Notes under the pieces: model-generated
Seen by the model: the letters and a program-made list of their open reading frames with translations, nothing else
The model's database searches: none
Told to the model about the DNA's origin: nothing
Program-made: the position numbers and the translations under genes
In this document: positions 8,507 to 17,875 of the stretch, in pieces
Numbering within the stretch: position 1 is the first letter of the stretch
Layout of the letters: the number at the start of each line of letters is the position of its first letter
From: a virus
Taxonomy: Duplodnaviria; Heunggongvirae; Uroviricota; Caudoviricetes
DNA: 20,716 nt
Virus record (IMG/VR): IMGVR_UViG_3300045988_076837
Coordinates: 1 to 20,716 of that record
Strand: one strand, 5' to 3'

Positions 8507-8936
8507 TGCCGTCACGGTGCTGAAAACCAGCCCCGAGATGCTGCGGATATTCGTGGATAACGGGAGTATTGCCTCCACACTGGCGACGTCGTTGTCATTC
8601 GAAAAGCGTTACACGCTCAATGTGATTGTGACCGACTTTACCGGTGATTTTGACCTGCTCATTGTGCCGGTGCTGGCGTGGCTGCGGGAAAATCAGCCCG
8701 ACATCATGACCACCGACGAAGGTCAGAAAAAAGGTTTCACGTTTTATGCAGACATCAACAATGACAGCAGCTTTGATATCAGCATCAGCCTGATGCTGAC
8801 CGAGCGCACGCTGGTCAGTGAGGTGGACGGCGCGCTGCATGTGAAGAATATCCCGGAACCCACGCCGCCGGAGCCGGTCACCCGCCCGATGGAGCTTTAT
8901 ATCAATGGCGAACTGGTGAGCAAGTGGGATGAATGA
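8469..8936 (+). CDS. R: Tail completion protein (P2 gpR-like)
   Basis: 155-aa ORF recognised as P2 R-like. Synteny. Confidence 0.87.
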   Translation: MLKPDSLRRALTDAVTVLKTSPEMLRIFVDNGSIASTLATSLSFEKRYTLNVIVTDFTGDFDLLIVPVLAWLRENQPDIMTTDEGQKKGFTFYADINNDSSFDISISLMLTERTLVSEVDGALHVKNIPEPTPPEPVTRPMELYINGELVSKWDE

Positions 8937-9381
8937 GTTTAAGCGTTTTGAAGACCGGCTGACCGGACTGATTGAGTCGCTGTCACCGTCAGGGCGTCGG
9001 CGACTGAGTGCCGAACTGGCGAAACGTCTGCGGCAGAGTCAGCAGCATCGTGTGATGGCACAGAAAGCCCCGGACGGCACCCCCTACGCGCCACGCCAGC
9101 AGCAGAGCGCCAGAAAAAAGACCGGTCGCGTTAAGCGAAAAATGTTTGCGAAACTTATCACCAGTCGTTTTTTGCATATCCGCGCCAGCCCTGAACAGGC
9201 ATCAATGGAGTTTTACGGCGGGAAGTCACCGAAAATAGCCAGTGTGCATCAGTTCGGTCTGTCAGAAGAAAACCGGAAAGACGGTAAGAAAATTGATTAT
9301 CCGGCGCGTCCTCTGCTCGGCTTTACCGGTGAGGATGTGCAGATGATTGAAGAGATTATCCTGACTCACCTCGATCGTTAG
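8929..9381 (+). CDS. S: Tail completion protein (P2 gpS-like)
   Basis: 150-aa ORF overlapping the R end. Recognised as P2 S-like. Confidence 0.87.
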   Translation: MNEFKRFEDRLTGLIESLSPSGRRRLSAELAKRLRQSQQHRVMAQKAPDGTPYAPRQQQSARKKTGRVKRKMFAKLITSRFLHIRASPEQASMEFYGGKSPKIASVHQFGLSEENRKDGKKIDYPARPLLGFTGEDVQMIEEIILTHLDR

Positions 9382-9447
9382 TTGTGCCATTCCCGACACC
9401 TCATCGTCACATTGCCGCCGGTATGACCCGGCGGCATCCTTCCCGTT
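9382..9447 (+). promoter_or_regulatory. Candidate late promoter region upstream of V
   Basis: 66-bp gap between S and V. It contains TGT-N12-ACC (9384-9401), close to the Ogr-type TGT-N12-ACA dyad. P2 has a late promoter at this position. Confidence 0.35.
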
Positions 9448-10089
9448 ATGAACACTCTCGCAAATATTCAGGAACTCGCGCGCGCACTGCGCAACATGAT
9501 CCGCACCGGCCTTGTCGTCGAAACCGACCTTAACGCCGGTCGCTGCCGTGTGCAGACCGGCGGCATGTGCACCGACTGGCTTCAGTGGCTGACCCATCGC
9601 GCCGGACGTTCGCGCACATGGTGGGCGCCTTCCGTGGGGGAACAGGTTCTGATTCTGGCCGTGGGCGGTGAACTCGACACGGCGTTCGTTCTGCCGGGGA
9701 TTTATTCCGGTGATAACCCCGCGCCGTCTGCGTCGGCGGATGCCCTGCATATCCGTTTCCCTGACGGGGCGGTGATTGAGTATGAACCCGAAACCAGTGC
9801 ACTCACGGTAAGCGGAATTAAAACGGCCAGCGTGACGGCTTCTGATTCTGTTACCGCCACGGTGCCGGCGGTCATGGTGAAAGCATCAACCCGCGTCACC
9901 CTGGACACACCAGAGGTGGTCTGCACTAACAAACTGACTACCGGCACGCTGGAAGTGCAGAAGGGCGGGAAGATGCACGGCAACATCGAGCATACCGACG
10001 GGAAATTCACGTCTAACGGCGTTCAGGTGGATGACCACGGTCACGGTGGTGTTAAGTCAGGTGACAACTGGACGCAGGGGACAAAATGA
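9448..10089 (+). CDS. V: Baseplate central spike protein (P2 gpV-like)
   Basis: 213-aa ORF recognised as P2 V-like. The C-terminal HxH (DDHGHGG) is typical of spike tips. Confidence 0.9.
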   Translation: MNTLANIQELARALRNMIRTGLVVETDLNAGRCRVQTGGMCTDWLQWLTHRAGRSRTWWAPSVGEQVLILAVGGELDTAFVLPGIYSGDNPAPSASADALHIRFPDGAVIEYEPETSALTVSGIKTASVTASDSVTATVPAVMVKASTRVTLDTPEVVCTNKLTTGTLEVQKGGKMHGNIEHTDGKFTSNGVQVDDHGHGGVKSGDNWTQGTK

Positions 10090-10437: not shown

Positions 10438-11346
10438 ATGCCGATTATCGACCTGAACCAGCTACCCGCACCGGATGTGGTTGAGGAGCTGGACTTTGAA
10501 ACCATTCTTGCCGAACGCAAGGCGACACTGATTTCCCTTTACCCGGAAGACCAGCAGGAGGCGGTCGCCCGTACCCTGACGCTGGAATCCGAGCCTCTCG
10601 TCAAACTGCTGGAGGAAAATGCTTATCGTGAGCTTATCTGGCGTCAGCGTGTGAATGAGGCCGCACGGGCAGTAATGCTGGCCTGTGCCGCCGGTAATGA
10701 CCTTGATGTGATTGGTGCCAATTACAACACCACGCGCCTGATTATCACCCCGGCAGATGATTCGACCATCCCGCCGACACCGGCAGTGATGGAGTCTGAC
10801 ACCGATTATCGTCTGCGTATTCAGCAGGCGTTTGAGGGCTTAAGCGTCGCCGGGTCGGTGGGAGCATATCAGTATCATGGTCGCAGTGCCGACGGGCGTG
10901 TCGCGGATATCTCTGTCACCAGTCCGTCTCCGGCCTGCGTCACCATCTCTGTGCTGTCACGTGAAAATAACGGCGTCGCATCCGAAGACCTGCTGGCTGT
11001 GGTACGTAACGCCCTGAATGGCGAGGATGTCAGGCCGGTGGCCGACCGCGTGACCGTGCAGTCTGCCGCCATCGTTGAATACCAGATAAACGCCACGCTT
11101 TACCTTTACCCTGGTCCCGAAAGCGAACCCATCCGCGCTGCCGCCGTGAAAAAACTGGAAGCGTATATCACGGCACAGCACCGGCTGGGGCGCGACATCC
11201 GTCTGTCTGCCATTTATGCCGCTTTGCATGTGGAAGGCGTGCAGCGTGTCGAACTGGCTGCACCACTGGCCGACATCGTGCTCAACAGTACGCAGGCGTC
11301 TTTCTGTACAGAATACCGCGTCGTGACCGGAGGCTCGGATGAGTGA
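10438..11346 (+). CDS. J: Baseplate wedge protein (P2 gpJ-like)
   Basis: 302-aa ORF recognised as P2 J-like. Synteny. Confidence 0.9.
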   Translation: MPIIDLNQLPAPDVVEELDFETILAERKATLISLYPEDQQEAVARTLTLESEPLVKLLEENAYRELIWRQRVNEAARAVMLACAAGNDLDVIGANYNTTRLIITPADDSTIPPTPAVMESDTDYRLRIQQAFEGLSVAGSVGAYQYHGRSADGRVADISVTSPSPACVTISVLSRENNGVASEDLLAVVRNALNGEDVRPVADRVTVQSAAIVEYQINATLYLYPGPESEPIRAAAVKKLEAYITAQHRLGRDIRLSAIYAALHVEGVQRVELAAPLADIVLNSTQASFCTEYRVVTGGSDE

Positions 11347-11869
11347 TTCGCGACTGCTGCCGACCGGTTCATCACCGCTTGAGGTTGCTGCTGCAAAAGC
11401 CTGTGCGGAAATTGAAAAAACGCCGGTCAGTATTCGTGAGCTGTGGAACCCGGACACCTGCCCGGCAAATCTGCTGCCGTGGCTGGCGTGGGCGTTTTCG
11501 GTCGACAGGTGGGATGAAAAGTGGCCGGAAGCGACAAAACGCGCCGTTATCCGCGATGCCTATTTCATCCACTGTCATAAAGGCACTATCGGCGCAATCC
11601 GGCGTGTGGTGGAGCCGCTCGGCTATCTCATTAACGTAAAGGAATGGTGGGAGACAAACGACCCGCCCGGAACCTTCCGCCTTGATATCGGCGTACTGGA
11701 AAGCGGCATCACGGAGGAGATGTATCTGGAAATGGAACGGCTGATTGCCGATGCCAAACCCGCAAGTCGCCACCTTATCGGTCTGAACATTATCCAGGAC
11801 ATTCCCGGCTGTCTGTATACAGGCGGTGTGGTCTGTGATGGTGATGTTATTACTGTTTATCCCGGATAA
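11339..11869 (+). CDS. I: Baseplate protein (P2 gpI-like)
   Basis: 176-aa ORF overlapping the J end. GGAGG RBS. Recognised as P2 I-like. Confidence 0.88.
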   Translation: MSDSRLLPTGSSPLEVAAAKACAEIEKTPVSIRELWNPDTCPANLLPWLAWAFSVDRWDEKWPEATKRAVIRDAYFIHCHKGTIGAIRRVVEPLGYLINVKEWWETNDPPGTFRLDIGVLESGITEEMYLEMERLIADAKPASRHLIGLNIIQDIPGCLYTGGVVCDGDVITVYPG

Positions 11870-11879
11870 GTGAGAAACA

Positions 11880-14492
11880 ATGAGCACGAAATTTAAAACC
11901 GTTATCACTACTGCCGGAGCCGCGAAGCTGGCAGCCGCCACTGTTCCCGGCGGGAAAAAAGTAAACCTGTCTGCAATGGCTGTGGGTGACGGTAATGGCC
12001 AATTGCCGGTGCCGGATGCCGGTCAGACGAAACTGGTGCATGAAGTCTGGCGTCATGCCCTGAATAAAGTCAGTGTGGATAACAAGAATAAAAACTATAT
12101 CGTGGCTGAACTGGTTGTTCCGCCAGAAGTGGGCGGCTTCTGGATGCGTGAGCTTGGTCTGTATGACGATGCCGGAACACTGATTGCGGTATCCAACATG
12201 GCAGAAAGCTATAAGCCAGAACTGGCTGAAGGCTCCGGACGTGCGCAGACCTGCCGCATGGTTATTATTCTCAGCAACGTGGCGTCCGTTGAGCTGAGTA
12301 TTGATGCCAGCACAGTGATGGCGACGCAGGATTACGTCGATGACAAAATCGCAGAGCATGAGCAGTCCCGCCGCCATCCTGACGCCACGCTGACAGAAAA
12401 AGGTTTTACTCAGTTAAGCAGTGCAACAACCAGCACCAGTGAGTCATTGGCGGCAACGCCAAAAGCGGTCAAGGCAGCAAATGACAACGCAAATTCACGT
12501 CTGGCGAAAAATCAGAATGGTGCAGATATCCAGGATAAATCAGCTTTTCTGGACAATGTTGGCGTTACCAGCCTGACGTTTATGAAAAACAACGGCGAAA
12601 TGCCGGTTGATGCTGATCTGAATACATTTGGTCCTGTTAAGGCTTATTCAGGTATCTGGTCTAAAGCAACGTCCACCAACGCAACACTGGAGAAAAATTT
12701 CCCGGAAGATAATGCTGTCGGTGTGCTTGAGGTTTTTGCTGGCGGCAATTTTGCAGGCACGCAACGCTATACCACACGTGACGGAAATTTGTATATCCGC
12801 AAACTCATTGGAACATGGAATGGTAATGATGGACCATGGGGAGCATGGCGCCATGTTCAGGCTGTAACGCGTGCTCTAAGTACGACCATTGACCTTAACT
12901 CTCTCGGTGGCGCAGAACATTTAGGTTTATGGAGAAACAGCAGTTCAGCAATAGCTTCTTTTGAACGACATTACCCTGAGCAGGGAGGAGACGCGCAGGG
13001 CATTCTGGAAATTTTCGAAGGTGGGCTATATGGACGCACGCAGCGTTATACAACCCGTAACGGGACTATGTATATTCGCGGCCTGACAGCCAAATGGGAT
13101 GCAGAAAATCCACAGTGGGAAGACTGGATCCAAATTGGTTATCAGACCAGTAGTACCTTCTATGAGGATGACCTGGATGATTTGATGTCTCCGGGTATTT
13201 ACAGTGTGACAGGCAAAGCGACCCACACCCCAATCCAGGGGCAGTCTGGTTTTCTGGAAGTCATCAGGCGCAAGGATGGTGTCTATGTTTTGCAACGTTA
13301 CACGACCACAGGAACCAGCGCAGCTACAAAAGACCGTTTATATGAGCGAGTTTTTCTTGGTGGCTCATTTAACGCGTGGGGGGAGTGGCGACAGATTTAT
13401 AACTCAAACTCTTTGCCGTTAGAGTTGGGTATCGGTGGCGCAGTGGCAAAACTCACCAGCCTGGACTGGCAGACATACGATTTTGTGCCGGGCAGTCTGA
13501 TAACCGTTCGGCTTGATAATATGACCAACATTCCCGACGGTATGGACTGGGGCGTCATTGATGGCAACCTGATAAACATCGCAGTTGGTCCGAGTGATGA
13601 TTCCGGTACGGGGCGCTCAATGCATGTATGGCGCAGCACTGTAAGTAAAGCGAACTACCGCTTTTTTATGGTGCGTATTTCAGGAAATCCGGGAAGCCGC
13701 ACGATCACGACAAGACGTGTGCCAATTATCGACGAAGCTCAGACATGGGGCGCGAAACAGACATTCAGTGCTGGCCTTTCTGGCGAACTGTCCGGCAATG
13801 CGGCTACAGCTACAAAGCTGAAAACGCCAAGGACAATTAACGGCGTAAAATTTGACGGCTCGGCAAATATTGAAGCGTTTCCGCCAGGTGTTCCGCTGCC
13901 GTGGCCATCAGATACACCACCTGCAGGCTATGCGATCATGCAGGGGCAGACGTTTGATAAGGCTGCATATCCGAAACTGGCTATTGCCTATCCTTCTGGT
14001 GTTATTCCTGATATGCGCGGCTGGACAATCAAGGGCAAACCCGCCAGTGGGCGTGCCGTATTGTCACAGGAACAGGACGGGATTAAATCGCATACTCACA
14101 GCGCCAGTGCGTCAAATACGGACTTAGGAACGAAAACGACCAGTTCATTTGATTACGGGACAAAAACAGTCAGTACGTTTAACCACGGCACGAAATCAAC
14201 CAATACTTCTGGCAATCATACACATACCGTCGGTTTTGCTGTGAGCGTGCAATCAGGCGGTGCAGATTATGGTGTTCCGCGAAGTGATAAAGGTGCTACG
14301 ACTACAAGTTCATCAGGCAATCATGCACATACAGTCGACATTGGAGCACATAACCATACTGTTGGTATTGGTGCACATTCACACACTGTTGCTATTGGCT
14401 CACACGGGCATTCCATTACCGTAAATGCTACTGGTAATACCGAAAACACCGTCAAAAACATCGCATTTAACTATATTGTGAGGCTTGCATAA
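11880..14492 (+). CDS. H: Tail fiber protein (P2 gpH-like, mosaic with a long divergent C-terminal part)
   Basis: 870-aa ORF. The N-terminal part ([27 protein letters not shown]...) is recognisably H-like. The distal part contains three tandem repeats of about 45 aa and a His-x-His-rich C-terminus. It is followed by G, whose start overlaps its stop. Confidence 0.9.
12720..13398 (+). repeat. Three tandem, degenerate repeats of about 45 codons inside H (protein-level repeat)
   Basis: [94 protein letters not shown] and [50 protein letters not shown] share the pattern G-x-LE-[VI]-x(6-8)-QRYTT-x(3-12)-Y-x-R-x(6-8)-W-x(3)-W. Confidence 0.6.
14211..14425 (+). repeat. His-x-His repeat tract at the C-terminal tip of H
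   Basis: GNHTHTV...[36 protein letters not shown], with matching near-repeats at the nucleotide level. Such HxH arrays form metal-binding interdigitated tips in phage long tail fibres, for example T4 gp37. Confidence 0.55.
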
Positions 14493-15070
14493 TGGCTTTC
14501 AGAATGAGTGCAGAAGCACAAACTATCCGCGTTTTCAATTTACTTGATGGAACCAATGAGTTTATTGGCGAAAGTGATGCATATATTCCGCCGTATACTG
14601 GCCTGCCTGCAAACAGTACAGATATTGCACCACCTGATATTCCTGCTGGTTATGCAGCCGTTTTCAATGCAGATGAAATGAAATGGGAGTTGATGGAAGA
14701 TCATCGCGGAAAGACTGTCTACGAAACGAAAATGGGAGCAGCCATTTATATTTCTGAACTTGGCGCATTACCTCCAGACGTGACAGCCATTTCCCCGGAG
14801 GGGGATTATCAGAAATGGAACGGAAATGCGTGGGTGAATGATGAGAATGCAGAGCGTGATGCACTTGTCAGAGCGGCTGAGTCTCAGAAGAAAGAGCAGA
14901 TTGCATATGCAGGTGAAATCATTGCCATGCTGCAGGATGCTGTCGATTTAGATATGGCTACCGAGGAAGAAAAGTTAAGCCTGACACACTGGAAAAAATA
15001 CCGTGTGCTGCTTAATCGCGTTCAGCCGGAAAATGCTCCGGATATAGAATGGCCTGAAATGCCGCAATAA
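14492..15070 (+). CDS. G: Tail fiber assembly chaperone (P2 gpG-like)
   Basis: 192-aa ORF whose start overlaps the H stop. Position and size match P2 G. Composition is AT-richer than the backbone, like the distal part of H. Confidence 0.85.
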
Positions 15071-15382
15071 ATTGTATAAGCTCTGATGTGAGTTTATACA
15101 TCTATGGCACAGAGTAAAAACTAATCTGGCAGTCCGCTCTGTGCCAATTGCAGACGTTGTTGCACTGCAAAAATATCTTGTCCGGATCAAGGTATCGCCA
15201 CCACTTGTTAGGTGGATTAATCCGTATTTATAACAAATACAATTCCCGGCTGTACCTATAAGCTGTTGTCAGTTATACAAAAGCGATGTAGTGTTCCACA
15301 CATTAAATTTACAAACGTGGAAAAGTCCGTGTTTAGATACAGATTTTTCCGCTGAATAACCGCATATTTCCAAAGGTTTATC
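15071..15382 (+). promoter_or_regulatory. AT-rich non-coding leader of the cargo gene, with repeated motifs and candidate promoter elements
   Basis: 312 bp with no ORF. It has two copies of TATAAGCT-N-TTATACA (15075-15100 and 15257-15279), a 9-bp inverted repeat (15106-15114 / 15137-15145) and weak sigma70-like hexamers before the ATG at 15383. Exact promoter not determined. Confidence 0.3.
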
Positions 15383-16348
15383 ATGAGTAAGTGGCTATTA
15401 GACAGGCTATTTGAAGCCGGTGATCAGGCAGAGCCCCGGTTTGCGTTTCAGGGGACTGTAAATTGGATGAGGGCCCTTGCCGAAGTCGTTAACGGTGGCG
15501 CTTGTGCCGATGATAAACTAAATGATTTATATGCTCGGGTACAACGTAGACCTGTCAATCGTGAAGCTGATACGCTTGTGTTTGAGAACACAATGATGGC
15601 CTTACATAATCTGTCATCTTTGAAAAGTATGAATAAAGATGTCGAAGATAAATATGACATATGTCGTTCAGCTATTATTTCTTGGTATTACAGTATCTAT
15701 TTTTCCGCTAGCGCGATGGTTGCAGCATCTTCTGGTTCTATTCAAGAGACACATACAGCCACAGCAAAAGTTTGGCAGTCAGATATCGCGGAAAAAGAAC
15801 TTATCCCATATCCATTTAATCTTCTTCTAACTAGTTTAGTTTCAAACACTGCTGATGCCGAGATTGCTGCATATAGAGGTGCTAACCGTTTCGACCTGAA
15901 TGATAGAGCTTATGATAATGAAACTGCTCATGGTGCACTGGTTTCCTATCTAAAGGGGACTCATGGCTACAAAAAGTGGGAAACAGAAGAGAGGGTGAGA
16001 ACTTCTCGTGATTTCAAAGCTCTTGGTGTTGACAACTTTCGCACGAAAGCTGCTCGCGAAGTTCGCGATCACGCACTAGAAAAAGGACAAGTTAATTTCC
16101 TTATTCAGGCATTTAGATACCGTGGTAAAGCGAACTATCGTGACTCTATATTTTTATCCTACGGTGACAACAACGAAGCTATTATAGAAGAATTTATCCA
16201 AGATTTGTATGACGTCGCTATTGGCTTCATTAGGGCTACTTCGCATTATTGCAGTCGAAGAGTCGAGAGAGGTACGTGGGCTGAGTTTGTCGAGGATATT
16301 TCTGATAACTCAAGGTTGTCTATTGACTCTGTCGTGCTTGAAATATAA
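15383..16348 (+). CDS. Hypothetical protein, 321 aa, cargo (moron) gene at the G/FI hotspot; function unknown, candidate anti-phage or exclusion protein
   Basis: Clean 966-nt ORF in a visibly AT-rich island, flanked by non-coding DNA on both sides and followed by terminator hairpins. Its composition and codon usage differ from the flanking phage genes. It occupies the position of P2 Z/fun. I recognise no family. Confidence 0.8.
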   Translation: MSKWLLDRLFEAGDQAEPRFAFQGTVNWMRALAEVVNGGACADDKLNDLYARVQRRPVNREADTLVFENTMMALHNLSSLKSMNKDVEDKYDICRSAIISWYYSIYFSASAMVAASSGSIQETHTATAKVWQSDIAEKELIPYPFNLLLTSLVSNTADAEIAAYRGANRFDLNDRAYDNETAHGALVSYLKGTHGYKKWETEERVRTSRDFKALGVDNFRTKAAREVRDHALEKGQVNFLIQAFRYRGKANYRDSIFLSYGDNNEAIIEEFIQDLYDVAIGFIRATSHYCSRRVERGTWAEFVEDISDNSRLSIDSVVLEI

Positions 16349-16556
16349 CAAACAATTTAAGAATGGCTCAGCACGCTTGGCATTTTCAGTTTGGTTCAAA
16401 TTTAGTGATTAAGGTATTCAAATTGAGTATGGTGAATACGTGCTTCACACTTTAATTGGGCGTTAATGCCCGCTTTTCGCTCAAAGCAGACTGTCAGATT
16501 TAATAGCGTTTTGATTATGTAACTTGTCAGTTGGAAGCTGAGTGAGAACAAATCAA

Positions 16557-16590
16557 GGCAGGCGGGCTGATTGCCCGCCTTTTCTTTATC
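16557..16590 (+). terminator. Rho-independent terminator closing the cargo transcription unit
   Basis: GC-rich hairpin ggcgggc (16561-16567) / gcccgcc (16573-16579) with a 5-nt loop, followed by ttttctttatc. A weaker hairpin plus T-run lies at 16458-16477. Confidence 0.6.
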
Positions 16591-16684
16591 TGTTGTTTCA
16601 TCCACTGGCCAGCCAGGTCAAATAGCGCCTCATGCCCTGCACAACTGAAAATACCACTCACCCATTAACCACGGAGTTAAACGG
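16591..16684 (+). promoter_or_regulatory. Candidate late promoter region upstream of FI
   Basis: Lies between the terminator and the FI start. It contains ctgttgtttca (16590-16600), similar to the motif in the P/O spacer. P2 has a late promoter at this position. Confidence 0.35.
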
Positions 16685-17875
16685 ATGAGTGATTATCATC
16701 ACGGTGTGCAGGTGCTGGAGATTAACGACGGCACCCGCGTCATTTCCACCGTATCCACTGCCATTGTCGGCATGGTCTGCACGGCCAGCGATGCGGATGC
16801 GGAAACCTTCCCCCTCAATAAACCGGTGCTGATTACCAATGTGCAGAGTGCGATTGCAAAGGCCGGTAAAAAAGGCACGCTGGCGGCGTCGTTGCAGGCC
16901 ATCGCTGACCAGTCAAAACCGGTCACCGTTGTTGTGCGCGTGGAAGACGGCACCGGCGACGACGAAGAAACGAAACTTGCGCAGACCGTTTCCAATATCA
17001 TCGGCACCACTGACGAAAACGGTCAGTACACCGGACTGAAAGCCCTGATGGGGGCTGAGTCGGTTACCGGCGTTAAACCGCGCATTCTTGGTGTGCCGGG
17101 GCTGGACACCAAAGAGGTTGCCGTCGCACTGGCATCGGTATGCCAGGAACTGAATGCATTCGGGTATATCAGCGCATGGGGCTGTAAAACCATTTCCGAG
17201 GTGAAAGCCTACCGCCAGAATTTCAGCCAGCGTGAGCTGATGGTCATCTGGCCGGATTTCCTCGCATGGGATACGGTTACCAGTACCACCGCCACCGCGT
17301 ATGCCACCGCCCGTGCGCTGGGGCTGCGCGCTAAAATCGACCAGGAGCAGGGCTGGCATAAAACGCTGTCCAACGTCGGGGTAAACGGTGTTACCGGCAT
17401 CAGCGCATCTGTATTCTGGGATTTGCAGAAGTCTGGCACTGATGCTGACCTGCTGAACGAGGCAGGCGTCACAACGCTGGTTCGCCGCGACGGTTTCCGT
17501 TTCTGGGGTAACCGTACCTGCTCCGATGACCCACTGTTCCTCTTTGAAAGCTACACACGCACCGCGCAGGTACTGGCTGACACGATGGCTGAGGCGCACA
17601 TGTGGGCTATTGATAAGCCCATCACCGCAACACTGATTCGCGACATCATTGATGGCATCAATGCCAAATTCCGCGAACTGAAAAGCAACGGTTATATCGT
17701 GGATGGCACATGCTGGTTCAGTGAAGAATCCAACGATGCGGAAACCCTCAAGGCCGGAAAACTGTATATCGACTACGACTATACCCCGGTGCCTCCCCTC
17801 GAAAACCTGACCCTGCGCCAGCGTATTACTTCTAGATACCTGGCAAGTCTGGTCACCTCGGTTAACAGCAATTAA
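16685..17875 (+). CDS. FI: Tail sheath protein (P2 gpFI-like)
   Basis: 396-aa ORF recognised as contractile tail sheath protein. GGAG RBS. Followed by the tube gene. Confidence 0.93.
   Translation: MSDYHHGVQVLEINDGTRVISTVSTAIVGMVCTASDADAETFPLNKPVLITNVQSAIAKAGKKGTLAASLQAIADQSKPVTVVVRVEDGTGDDEETKLAQTVSNIIGTTDENGQYTGLKALMGAESVTGVKPRILGVPGLDTKEVAVALASVCQELNAFGYISAWGCKTISEVKAYRQNFSQRELMVIWPDFLAWDTVTSTTATAYATARALGLRAKIDQEQGWHKTLSNVGVNGVTGISASVFWDLQKSGTDADLLNEAGVTTLVRRDGFRFWGNRTCSDDPLFLFESYTRTAQVLADTMAEAHMWAIDKPITATLIRDIIDGINAKFRELKSNGYIVDGTCWFSEESNDAETLKAGKLYIDYDYTPVPPLENLTLRQRITSRYLASLVTSVNSN

What the first reader, a model, noticed from the sequence alone, without database searches (positions are those of the whole stretch)
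12400..15070. Mosaic host-range module: lengthened H with internal tandem repeats and an HxH tip, plus an AT-richer G
H is 870 aa, whereas I recall P2 H as about 669 aa. The divergence starts after the conserved N-terminal part, and the distal part of H together with G is compositionally distinct from the backbone. The three roughly 45-aa tandem repeats (12720-13398) and the HxH array (14211-14425) suggest a receptor-binding region acquired by horizontal exchange, as is usual for H/G cassettes.
Basis: partly seen in the sequence, partly recalled or inferred. Interest (0 to 1): 0.5.

Follow-up and report, generated by a model that had tools for sequence, protein, structure and literature searches.

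The report
Mosaic P2-type tail fibre and chaperone
This is the host-recognition tail fibre gene of a P2-like E. coli prophage and its assembly chaperone, built by recombination from modules that also occur in P2, T-even phages, lambda and pyocins; it is a clear but ordinary example of how phages shuffle host range.

Summary
H (11880-14492) encodes 870 aa against 669 in canonical P2. Similarity to P2 H stops at residue 207. The distal part of H (47-53% GC) and G (45.6%) are AT-richer than the backbone (56.9%). The repeats are real, but they are three ~85-90-aa pyocin-type knob domains (aa 243-329, 335-423, 428-510; nt 12606-13409). The HxH array is the iron-binding needle of a T4 gp37-type receptor-binding tip (aa 651-870; PDB 2XGF, E 6e-77). 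It has six HxH motifs, the first at nt 14091. G is a lambda-Tfa-type chaperone: 65% identical to lambda Tfa, with an N-terminal half unrelated to P2 G. The mosaic is finer than proposed. The gene is ~99% identical to an ST131 prophage allele, except for block 12742-13476 (67% there), which is 99% identical to phage 899. Phage 899 carries a P2-type tip and G instead. Synonymous divergence is 2.2 inside the block and 0.07 in the flanks, so this is recombination, not local mutation. The exact protein occurs on 8 gut-metagenome contigs. Every module belongs to a known family, so this is a new recombinant of known parts. Interest is low to moderate.

The parts
11880..14492 (+). Gene H, the tail fibre (870 aa)
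   Evidence: ORF. Pfam Phage_tail_fib, Phage_fiber_2 and Collar. Lies between I (11339-11869) and G, as in P2.
11880..12332 (+). P2-type N-terminal baseplate-attachment domain (aa 1-151)
   Evidence: PF12571, E 2.3e-57. 82.6% identical to P2 H over residues 1-207.
12378..12578 (+). Fibre-repeat segment shared with Mu gpS (aa 167-233). Holds the end of P2 similarity (nt 12485) and a patch that diverges from phage 899 (12430-12542).
   Evidence: PF03406, E 2.8e-20. PDB 8JU3 and 5YVQ, E 4e-17 and 2e-15. Breakpoints.
12606..12866 (+). Knob domain 1 (aa 243-329)
   Evidence: Knob profile E 7.7e-37. Internal repeat.
12882..13148 (+). Knob domain 2 (aa 335-423)
   Evidence: Knob profile E 1.7e-36.
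13161..13409 (+). Knob domain 3 (aa 428-510)
   Evidence: Knob profile E 1.8e-23.
12742..13476 (+). Recombinant block: the second half of knob 1, knobs 2 and 3, and the start of the next domain. It carries a phage-899/GMG73-type allele inside an otherwise ST131-prophage-type gene.
   Evidence: 215 of 217 informative sites are 899-like. Maximum chi-square 220.8, against at most 21.7 in 200 permutations. dS is 2.18 inside the block and 0.065-0.10 in the flanks.
13416..13739 (+). Beta-rich domain of unassigned fold (aa 513-620), shared with T-even gp37
   Evidence: AF2 predicts strands at model positions 292-384, which are H aa 522-614. It lies within the 55%-identical block shared with JK23 and RB14 gp37.
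13740..13829 (+). Shaft linker with the motif [23 protein letters not shown]. It is the recombination junction to the tip: similarity to phage 899 ends at about nt 13826.
   Evidence: mismatch map. The same motif precedes the knob block in JK23 gp37.
13830..14489 (+). T4 gp37 / lambda Stf-type receptor-binding tip (aa 651-870): collar (aa 670-717, nt 13887-14030), HxH needle and head
   Evidence: PDB 2XGF, E 6.1e-77. Pfam Collar. 95% identical to Chlobot Stf and 58% to lambda orf314.
14091..14411 (+). Six HxH motifs of the needle, starting at nt 14091, 14217, 14322, 14349, 14376 and 14403
   Evidence: They align with the di-histidine motifs of T4 gp37.
14226..14321 (+). Putative head domain, the hypervariable receptor-contact region (aa ~783-814) between the 2nd and 3rd HxH motifs
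   Evidence: It aligns with T4 residues 939-955, which are implicated in OmpC and LPS binding (alignment; PMC5221442). It is only 54% identical to P24A7b, with identical flanks.
14492..15070 (+). Gene G, the tail fibre assembly chaperone (192 aa), lambda-Tfa type. N-domain is aa 1-94 (14492-14773); C-domain is aa 95-192 (14774-15067).
   Evidence: PF02413, E 2.8e-39. 65% identical to lambda Tfa over its full length. Only aa 95-192 align to P2 G (40%) and to Mu U in 5YVQ_B.

Best explanation
H and G form the host-recognition cassette of a P2-like (Peduovirus) prophage of gut E. coli.

H is predicted to be a homotrimeric fibre made of modules with different ancestries:
1. A P2-type N-terminal domain that docks on the baseplate.
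2. A short fibre-repeat segment shared with Mu gpS.
3. Three tandem pyocin-type knob domains followed by a beta-rich domain. T-even phages of the RB14/T6 type carry this same block in the proximal part of gp37.
4. A conserved shaft linker.
5. A T4 gp37 / lambda Stf-type tip: a collar, a needle whose six HxH motifs would each coordinate one metal ion (iron in T4) on the trimer axis, and a small hypervariable head that contacts the receptor.

G is a Tfa-type chaperone translated by stop-start overlap with H. Its N-terminal half is matched to this type of tip and would bind it. Its conserved C-terminal helical half would drive trimerisation.

The gene arose by homologous recombination at conserved linkers. 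The tip plus G travel together as one unit. The knob block (12742-13476) was exchanged separately, by a double crossover with a phage-899-like allele.

What is shown: the domain homologies, the breakpoints and the co-inheritance of tip and G. What is inferred: trimerisation, metal binding, chaperone action and the identity of the receptor.
For: - Backbone: the window is 96% identical to Peduovirus genomes over 86-88% of its length.
- Domains: Pfam; PDB by sequence, with 2XGF at E 6e-77 and Mu S at E 4e-17.
- T-even relationship: 55% identity over aa 226-634 to JK23 and RB14 gp37, with the knobs in one-to-one order.
- Mosaic: sliding identity and mismatch maps; maximum chi-square 220.8 with 0 of 200 permutations reaching it; dS 2.18 in the block against ~0.07 in the flanks, omega ~0.1.
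- Tip and chaperone linkage: phage 899 has the same N-terminus and knobs but a P2-type tip and a G 94% identical to P2 G. The window, the ST131 prophage and P24A7b have the T4/lambda-type tip and a G 97-99% identical to each other. G residues 1-50 are 94% identical to Chlobot Tfa and 12% to P2 G, while G residues 141-192 are 50% identical to P2 G.
- Literature: the Tfa N-domain binds the fibre and the conserved C-domain trimerises (PMC9608196). HxH motifs coordinate iron; T4 has seven motifs; the chain doubles back at the head (PMC6116203; PMC12609058). A T4/lambda RBP family is defined by the last ~215 aa with a 184-207-aa assembly gene directly downstream (PMC9659904).
- Not an assembly artefact: the exact 870-aa protein is on 8 metagenome contigs with the same neighbours.
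Against: - No experiment bears on this allele. The receptor, the metal content and the dependence on G are all inferred from homologues.
- The AF2 model is of a monomer and of moderate confidence (pLDDT 73.5, pTM 0.37). Global TM-scores to the pyocin fibres are low (0.25) because the domains are strung like beads, so fold assignment rests on local matches.
- One of the seven T4 di-histidine sites is reduced to a single His here.
- Most T4 residues implicated in OmpC or LPS contact are not conserved in the alignment (T939->V, V941->S, Y953->R, A955->K). T4's receptor therefore cannot be transferred to this fibre.
- The beta-rich domain at aa 513-620 has no assigned fold or role.
- In T-even gp37 the knob block sits far from the tip. 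That fits a structural spacer role rather than a role in binding.
Confidence: 0.85

Rival explanations
1. The extra length of H arose by recent tandem duplication inside this phage lineage, not by import of foreign modules.
For: Three similar units lie head to tail in the gene.
Against: The copies are only 33-37% identical to each other and are not detectable as DNA repeats. The same three-knob array, in the same order, is present in RB14 and JK23 gp37 at 55% identity, and in a different myovirus, 613R2. The duplication therefore predates the spread of the block. Canonical P2 H shows no knob with the same profile.
Confidence: 0.03
2. The divergent knob block reflects local diversifying mutation (a DGR-like or positively selected hypervariable region), not recombination.
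For: The block is 67% identical to the ST131 allele, between flanks that are 99% identical. Receptor-binding proteins are often under diversifying selection.
Against: Synonymous divergence is saturated in the block (dS 2.18) against 0.065-0.10 in the flanks, and omega is 0.10. The block is 99% identical to phage 899. There is no template/variable repeat pair and no inverted repeat in 11000-17000. No reverse transcriptase or invertase ORF lies nearby (gene content).
Confidence: 0.02
3. The mosaic is a chimeric assembly of two co-resident P2-like prophages.
For: Tail fibre genes of related prophages share long identical stretches in which assemblers can switch between templates.
Against: The identical 870-aa protein, with the same G, the same 321-aa cargo gene and the same FI neighbours, is found on 8 contigs from independent human-gut samples, one of them 297 kb long.
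Confidence: 0.03
4. The knob block is a second, independently exchangeable receptor-binding site that recognises a surface glycan. The fibre would then bind at two separated sites, as proposed for R-type pyocins, and the 12742-13476 swap would itself change host range.
For: In R1/R2 pyocin fibres the most variable regions, thought to set the killing spectrum, map to Knob2 and the C-terminal lectin domain, ~100 A apart (PMC6116203). Here the knob block exists as deeply diverged alleles (71% aa identity to the ST131 allele; 63% to P24A7b over aa 181-620) that recombine independently of the tip.
Against: Omega in the block is low (0.10). The homologous block in T-even gp37 lies near the knee, far from the receptor-binding end. 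No ligand site can be seen in a monomer model.
Confidence: 0.25

Closest known systems
H and G of the P2-like prophage in E. coli ST131 strains (for example THO-015: WP_200930500.1 and WP_001516655.1)
   Same: Collinear over the whole of H and G. About 99% nt identity in 11880-12700 and 99-100% in 13450-15000. G is 99.5% identical. Same domain order and same T4/lambda-type tip.
   Different: The block 12742-13476 (knobs 1b to 3) is only ~67% nt and 71% aa identical. The cargo gene downstream of G differs.
Escherichia phage 899 / Yersinia phage GMG73 tail fibre
   Same: 95% aa identity over H residues 1-671. 99% nt identity across the knob block 12543-13478.
   Different: Similarity ends at nt ~13826. 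Phage 899 has a P2-type C-terminal tip and a 174-aa G that is 94% identical to P2 G. It also differs in a patch at 12430-12542.
Canonical phage P2 H (669 aa) and G (175 aa)
   Same: Same locus and operon position. H residues 1-207 are 82.6% identical. The C-terminal half of G is 40% identical.
   Different: No detectable similarity beyond H residue 207. No knob domain is found with the knob profile. The N-terminal half of G is unrelated.
T4 gp37 receptor-binding tip (PDB 2XGF) and the T4/lambda RBP family of Magaziner and Salmond (lambda orf314/Stf, PhiNP ORF6)
   Same: The last ~220 aa are homologous (E 6e-77). There is a collar domain, HxH motifs on both sides of a variable head, and an assembly gene of 192 aa directly downstream.
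   Different: Six HxH motifs rather than seven. The head residues differ from those T4 uses for OmpC and LPS. The chaperone is of the lambda-Tfa type, not T4 gp38. The tip is mounted on a P2 baseplate fibre.
R1/R2 pyocin fibres (PDB 6CL5, 6CL6, 6CU2) and other knob-bearing fibres (phi11 gp45, phage K gp144, T4 gp34)
   Same: Tandem knob domains of ~85 aa, matched by sequence profile and by fold. Both are fibres of a P2-type contractile tail. HxH metal sites occur in the shaft.
   Different: Three knobs rather than two. The distal end is a gp37-type needle tip rather than a lectin-like beta-sandwich. Identity is low (12-24%).
gp37 of T-even phages with a gp38 adhesin (RB14, T6-like, JK23)
   Same: A block of ~410 aa (three knobs, the beta-rich domain and the shaft motif) at 55% identity, in the same order.
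   Different: In gp37 the block lies in the proximal part of a 981-aa protein, and the receptor is bound by a separate gp38 adhesin. Here the block is followed directly by a self-contained tip.

Membership tests
P2 gpH-type tail fibre (Peduovirus) | N-terminal baseplate-binding domain (Pfam Phage_tail_fib, PF12571) | tested here: met
   E 2.3e-57 over residues 1-151, full profile length. 82.6% identity to P2 H residues 1-207.
P2 gpH-type tail fibre (Peduovirus) | Position in the V-W-J-I-H-G operon, upstream of FI | tested here: met
   The ORF order matches the P2 annotation and the Pfam labels of the neighbouring genes.
Pyocin knob domain | Sequence similarity to Knob1/Knob2 of R-type pyocin fibres | tested here: met
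   A profile of 27 knob sequences hits 6CT8, 6CL5 and 6CL6 at E 3.2e-4 to 3.6e-4 over chain residues ~139-209 of the 323-691 construct, which I place in Knob2 (residues 445-528). It hits Pa193 gp47 at E 1e-5. No Pfam or NCBIfam model matched.
Pyocin knob domain | Antiparallel five- or six-stranded beta-sheet knob fold | tested here: met
Pyocin knob domain | Trimeric assembly with a shared hydrophobic core on the fibre axis | not testable with these tools
   Only monomer prediction is available.
T4 gp37 / lambda Stf receptor-binding tip family | Homology confined to the last ~215 aa, including a collar domain | tested here: met
   2XGF, E 6.1e-77 over aa 651-870. Pfam Collar over aa 670-717. 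Family definition from PMC9659904.
T4 gp37 / lambda Stf receptor-binding tip family | Di-histidine (HxH) motifs lining the needle | tested here: met
   Six motifs, aligned with six of the seven in T4. T4's second site is reduced to one His by a 3-aa deletion. Six motifs also occur in the Bas63 long tail fibre.
T4 gp37 / lambda Stf receptor-binding tip family | Iron bound by the HxH motifs; binding to OmpC or LPS | not testable with these tools
   Needs purified protein. The T4 contact residues are mostly not conserved in the alignment.
T4 gp37 / lambda Stf receptor-binding tip family | Assembly gene of 184-207 aa directly downstream | tested here: met
   G is 192 aa and its start overlaps the H stop. 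65% identical to lambda Tfa.
Tfa-type tail fibre assembly chaperone (Caudo_TAP) | Caudo_TAP domain, with a variable N-terminal fibre-binding half and a conserved C-terminal half | tested here: met
   PF02413, E 2.8e-39. Caudo_TAP_N and Caudo_TAP are on record for the identical protein. The C-terminal half aligns to Mu U (5YVQ_B, E 9e-10) and to P2 G (40%). The N-terminal half is 12-14% identical to P2 G and 80-94% to lambda and Chlobot Tfa.
Tfa-type tail fibre assembly chaperone (Caudo_TAP) | Chaperone activity on the cognate fibre | not testable with these tools
   Needs co-expression experiments.
Programmed host-range switches (Mu/P1 invertible segment; diversity-generating retroelement) | Inverted crossover sites with an invertase, or a template/variable repeat pair with a reverse transcriptase | tested here: not met
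   There are no inverted repeats, and only chance-level 18-22-nt direct repeats, in 11000-17000. No such genes appear among the called ORFs.

The most novel reading that the evidence does not exclude
The three-knob block may be a second specificity determinant that is exchanged as its own cassette (here 12742-13476), independently of the tip+G cassette. P2-like fibres would then carry two separately swappable binding sites: knobs for a surface glycan and the gp37-type head for a porin or the LPS core. This matches the two-site orientation model proposed for R-type pyocins. The present allele would be a natural 'knob-swap' experiment relative to the ST131 prophage fibre.
Probability: 0.25. Interest if true: 0.4.

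Novelty: new member of a known kind. Interest (0 to 1): 0.2.

Why it matters
Tail-fibre mosaicism in P2 has been textbook knowledge since the H/G sequences were first compared with Mu, P1, lambda and the T-even phages, so the principle is not new. The value of this locus is practical.

It gives a clean natural series with mapped junctions:
- ST131 prophage: same tip and G, different knobs.
- Phage 899: same knobs, different tip and G.
- P24A7b: same tip scaffold, different head.

These junctions could guide engineering of P2-based or R-pyocin-based particles. The series could also test whether knob domains contribute to host range, and it supports the view that a tip and the N-terminal half of its chaperone move as one unit.

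Tried and rejected
- NCBIfam gave no hit for H, G or the cargo ORF, although NCBI labels close relatives 'pyocin knob domain-containing'.
- Pfam has no knob model. Single knobs gave only noise hits.
- BLASTP of H against itself did not report the internal repeats. They had to be cut out and compared pairwise.
- Tandem Repeats Finder sees no DNA repeat across the knobs, only the 27-nt periodicity in the needle.
- The fold of the beta-rich domain at aa 513-620 could not be assigned.
- In-situ duplication, local hypermutation or a DGR, an invertible segment and an assembly chimera were each considered and rejected. See the rival explanations.
- I first assumed that the G-FI slot was the defence hotspot of Rousset et al. 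The paper places that hotspot between A and Q, so I do not cite it for this slot.
- For the cargo ORF, PADLOC, PHROGs, Pfam, a PDB sequence-profile search and Foldseek against PDB all came back empty.
Full report
WHAT THE WINDOW IS. The 20.7-kb window is the late (structural) region of a P2-like phage. It is 96% identical over 86-88% of its length to Peduovirus genomes such as P24A7b, P22H1 and D8. The gene order is Q ... V-W-J-I-H-G, then a cargo gene, then FI-FII-E-T. The exact H protein is on 8 contigs from human-gut metagenomes, one of them 297 kb long, always with the same neighbours. So this is a circulating prophage of gut E. coli, not an assembly artefact.

CHECK OF THE OBSERVATION. 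H is at 11880-14492 and encodes 870 aa. G is at 14492-15070 and encodes 192 aa. The H stop and the G start overlap as TAATG. Canonical P2 H is 669 aa. P2 H aligns only to residues 1-207 (82.6% identity), and at the DNA level similarity ends at nt 12485 and resumes at 15047. GC content is 56.9% in the backbone, 47.5% in 12486-13415, 52.7% in 13416-13829, 47.7% in the tip, 45.6% in G and 55.7% in FI.

Three internal repeats are present, marked by QRYTT at aa 295, 388 and 472. The first two match each other at E 6e-23 and pairwise identities are 33-37%. Their period is 84-93 aa, not 45 aa. A profile delimits them at aa 243-329, 335-423 and 428-510, which is nt 12606-13409. The repeats are invisible at the DNA level.

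There are six HxH motifs, at aa 738, 780, 815, 824, 833 and 842.

WHAT THE PARTS ARE.
- Residues 1-151 are the P2-type N-terminal domain (PF12571, E 2e-57).
- Residues 167-233 are a fibre-repeat segment shared with the Mu tail fibre S (PDB 8JU3 and 5YVQ).
- The knobs are followed by a beta-rich domain (aa 513-620) whose fold I could not assign. Then comes a shaft linker carrying the motif [23 protein letters not shown].
- The whole block aa 226-634 is 55% identical, knob for knob, to the proximal part of gp37 in T-even phages of the RB14/JK23 type. Canonical P2 H has no knob detectable with the same profile.
- Residues 651-870 are a close homologue of the T4 gp37 receptor-binding tip (2XGF, E 6e-77). 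They are 58% identical to lambda orf314 and 95% identical to the Stf of the lambdoid phage Chlobot.

From the literature, this kind of tip consists of a collar, a six-stranded needle whose HxH motifs coordinate iron on the trimer axis, and a small head where the chain doubles back and which contacts the receptor. T4 has seven motifs and the Bas63 long fibre has six (PMC12609058; PMC6116203). In this H protein the second T4 site is reduced to one histidine by a 3-residue deletion.

The segment between the second and third motifs (aa ~783-814) aligns with T4 residues 939-955, which genetics implicates in OmpC and LPS binding (PMC5221442). In that alignment T939, V941, Y953 and A955 are replaced by V, S, R and K, while G943 and Y949 are kept. 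The alignment has gaps there, so this is tentative. T4's receptor cannot be assumed for this fibre.

G is a Caudo_TAP protein and is 65% identical to lambda Tfa over its full length. Only residues 95-192 align to P2 G (40%) and to Mu U (5YVQ_B). Residues 1-50 are 94% identical to Chlobot Tfa and 12% identical to P2 G. This fits the published modular model, in which a variable N-terminal domain binds the fibre and a conserved C-terminal helical domain drives trimerisation (PMC9608196).

THE MOSAIC. Sliding-window identity and mismatch maps show the following.
- Against an ST131 prophage (strain THO-015): ~99% identity in 11880-12700, ~67% in 12750-13400, and 99-100% in 13450-15000.
- Against phage 899 / GMG73: 94-100% identity up to 12350, a divergent patch at 12430-12542, 99% in 12543-13478, ~94% up to 13811, and no similarity beyond ~13826.
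- Against P24A7b: the N-terminus, the tip scaffold and G are 96-100% identical. The region aa 181-620 is 63% identical and the head (aa 751-815) is 54% identical.

In the three-way alignment, informative sites are ST131-like up to 12698, 899-like in 215 of 217 sites between 12742 and 13476, and mostly ST131-like again after that. The maximum chi-square is 220.8, against at most 21.7 in 200 permutations. Synonymous divergence from the ST131 allele is 2.18 inside the block and 0.065-0.10 in the flanks, with omega 0.10. The block is therefore an old, purified allele brought in by recombination, not a product of local mutation.

Phage 899 shares the N-terminus and the knobs but has a P2-type tip and a G 94% identical to P2 G. 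So the tip and G are inherited together, and the knob block assorts independently of them. No complete E. coli genome among the 5,426 searched carries this exact combination; the best match is 93.9% identical.

MECHANISM, AND WHAT IS INFERRED. The shown steps are the domain homologies, the domain order, the breakpoints and the tip-G linkage. The inferred steps, taken from the homologues, are these:
- H trimerises.
- Its N-terminus docks on the baseplate.
- The HxH needle binds about six metal ions.
- The head binds an outer-membrane receptor, a porin and/or the LPS core by analogy with T4. From my own memory lambda Stf also uses OmpC; I did not check this here.
- G binds the nascent tip through its N-domain and nucleates the trimer.

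The role of the knob block is open. It may be a rigid spacer, as its position in T-even gp37 suggests. It may be a second glycan-binding site, as proposed for pyocins.

RIVALS REJECTED. In-situ duplication is rejected because the copies are only 33-37% identical and the same array exists in T-even phages. A DGR, an invertible segment or hypermutation is rejected because there are no repeats, no reverse transcriptase or invertase gene, and the dS pattern points to recombination. An assembly chimera is rejected because the protein is on 8 independent contigs.

NOVELTY AND SCORE. Every module belongs to a described family. Horizontal exchange of H/G cassettes among P2, Mu, P1, lambda and the T-even phages is long established. 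The T4/lambda tip family with its adjacent assembly gene has been catalogued (PMC9659904). What is new is only this particular recombinant and the precise junction map. I rate it a new member of a known kind, with interest 0.2.

IN PASSING. Three things stood out in the slot between G and FI, which in P2 holds fun(Z).
- The ORF. The slot holds a 321-aa ORF (15383-16348, 41.8% GC). It has no Pfam, NCBIfam, PHROG or PADLOC hit. It does have 768 homologues, nearly all of exactly 321 aa and, among the 120 listed, 57-92% identical, in very different bacteria.
- Its predicted structure. AF2 predicts a confident all-alpha fold (pLDDT 87.5, pTM 0.87), and it has no analogue in the PDB.
- Its genomic neighbours. 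The same cassette is 99.6% identical in 41 complete E. coli genomes. In one of them it lies beside a type II restriction-modification pair, in the same slot after the tail fibre genes. In Agaribacterium it lies next to Gabija-like and JetD genes.

Noticed in passing
window 15383-16348 (+), cassette about 15132-16491: A 321-aa cargo ORF (41.8% GC) lies between G and FI, where P2 has fun(Z). It has no hit in Pfam, NCBIfam, PHROGs or PADLOC. It has 768 homologues, almost all exactly 321 aa and, among the 120 listed, 57-92% identical, in Aeromonas, Vibrio, Marinomonas, Desulfovibrio, Psychrobacter, Methyloprofundus and others. AF2 gives a confident all-alpha fold (pLDDT 87.5, pTM 0.87) with no PDB analogue (best Foldseek E 0.29). 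The cassette is 99.6% identical in 41 complete E. coli genomes. In strain 190 it sits after the tail fibre genes beside a type II R-M pair and a GIY-YIG gene. In Agaribacterium it sits beside Gabija-like and JetD genes, and in Desulfovibrio beside a HigB-like toxin. It is a candidate for an unnamed single-gene defence or cargo family.
   Followed up: partly
window 15071-16684, compared with L001, L002, L003, L005: The slot between G and FI holds different cargo in each relative. P2 has fun(Z) on the minus strand. The ST131 prophage has one 55-aa ORF. P24A7b has three small ORFs. Phage 899 has a 461-aa ORF and another of ~348 aa. Phages 10W and P24C9 have HAD phosphatase and NUDIX genes. Similarity to P2 resumes for ~110 nt just after G (15047-15158) and again from ~16470, before FI.
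   Followed up: partly
window 16457-16580: Two terminator-like hairpins lie downstream of the cargo ORF and upstream of FI. The one at 16560-16580 has 8 pairs and is bidirectional; the other is at 16457-16472. None was found directly after G, so G and the cargo gene may not be separated by a terminator.
   Followed up: no
window 9381-9448: Only 66 nt separate S (8929-9381) from V (9448-10089). The minus-strand orf30 that P2, P24A7b and the ST131 prophage carry between S and V is absent here, as it is in phage 899.
   Followed up: no
window 13740-13871 and P0074 (JK23 gp37) residues 63-103: The shaft motif [23 protein letters not shown] lies after the knob block in H but before it in T-even gp37. 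It coincides with the junction at which phage 899 and this H diverge. It looks like a shared linker that serves as a recombination site between fibre modules.
   Followed up: partly
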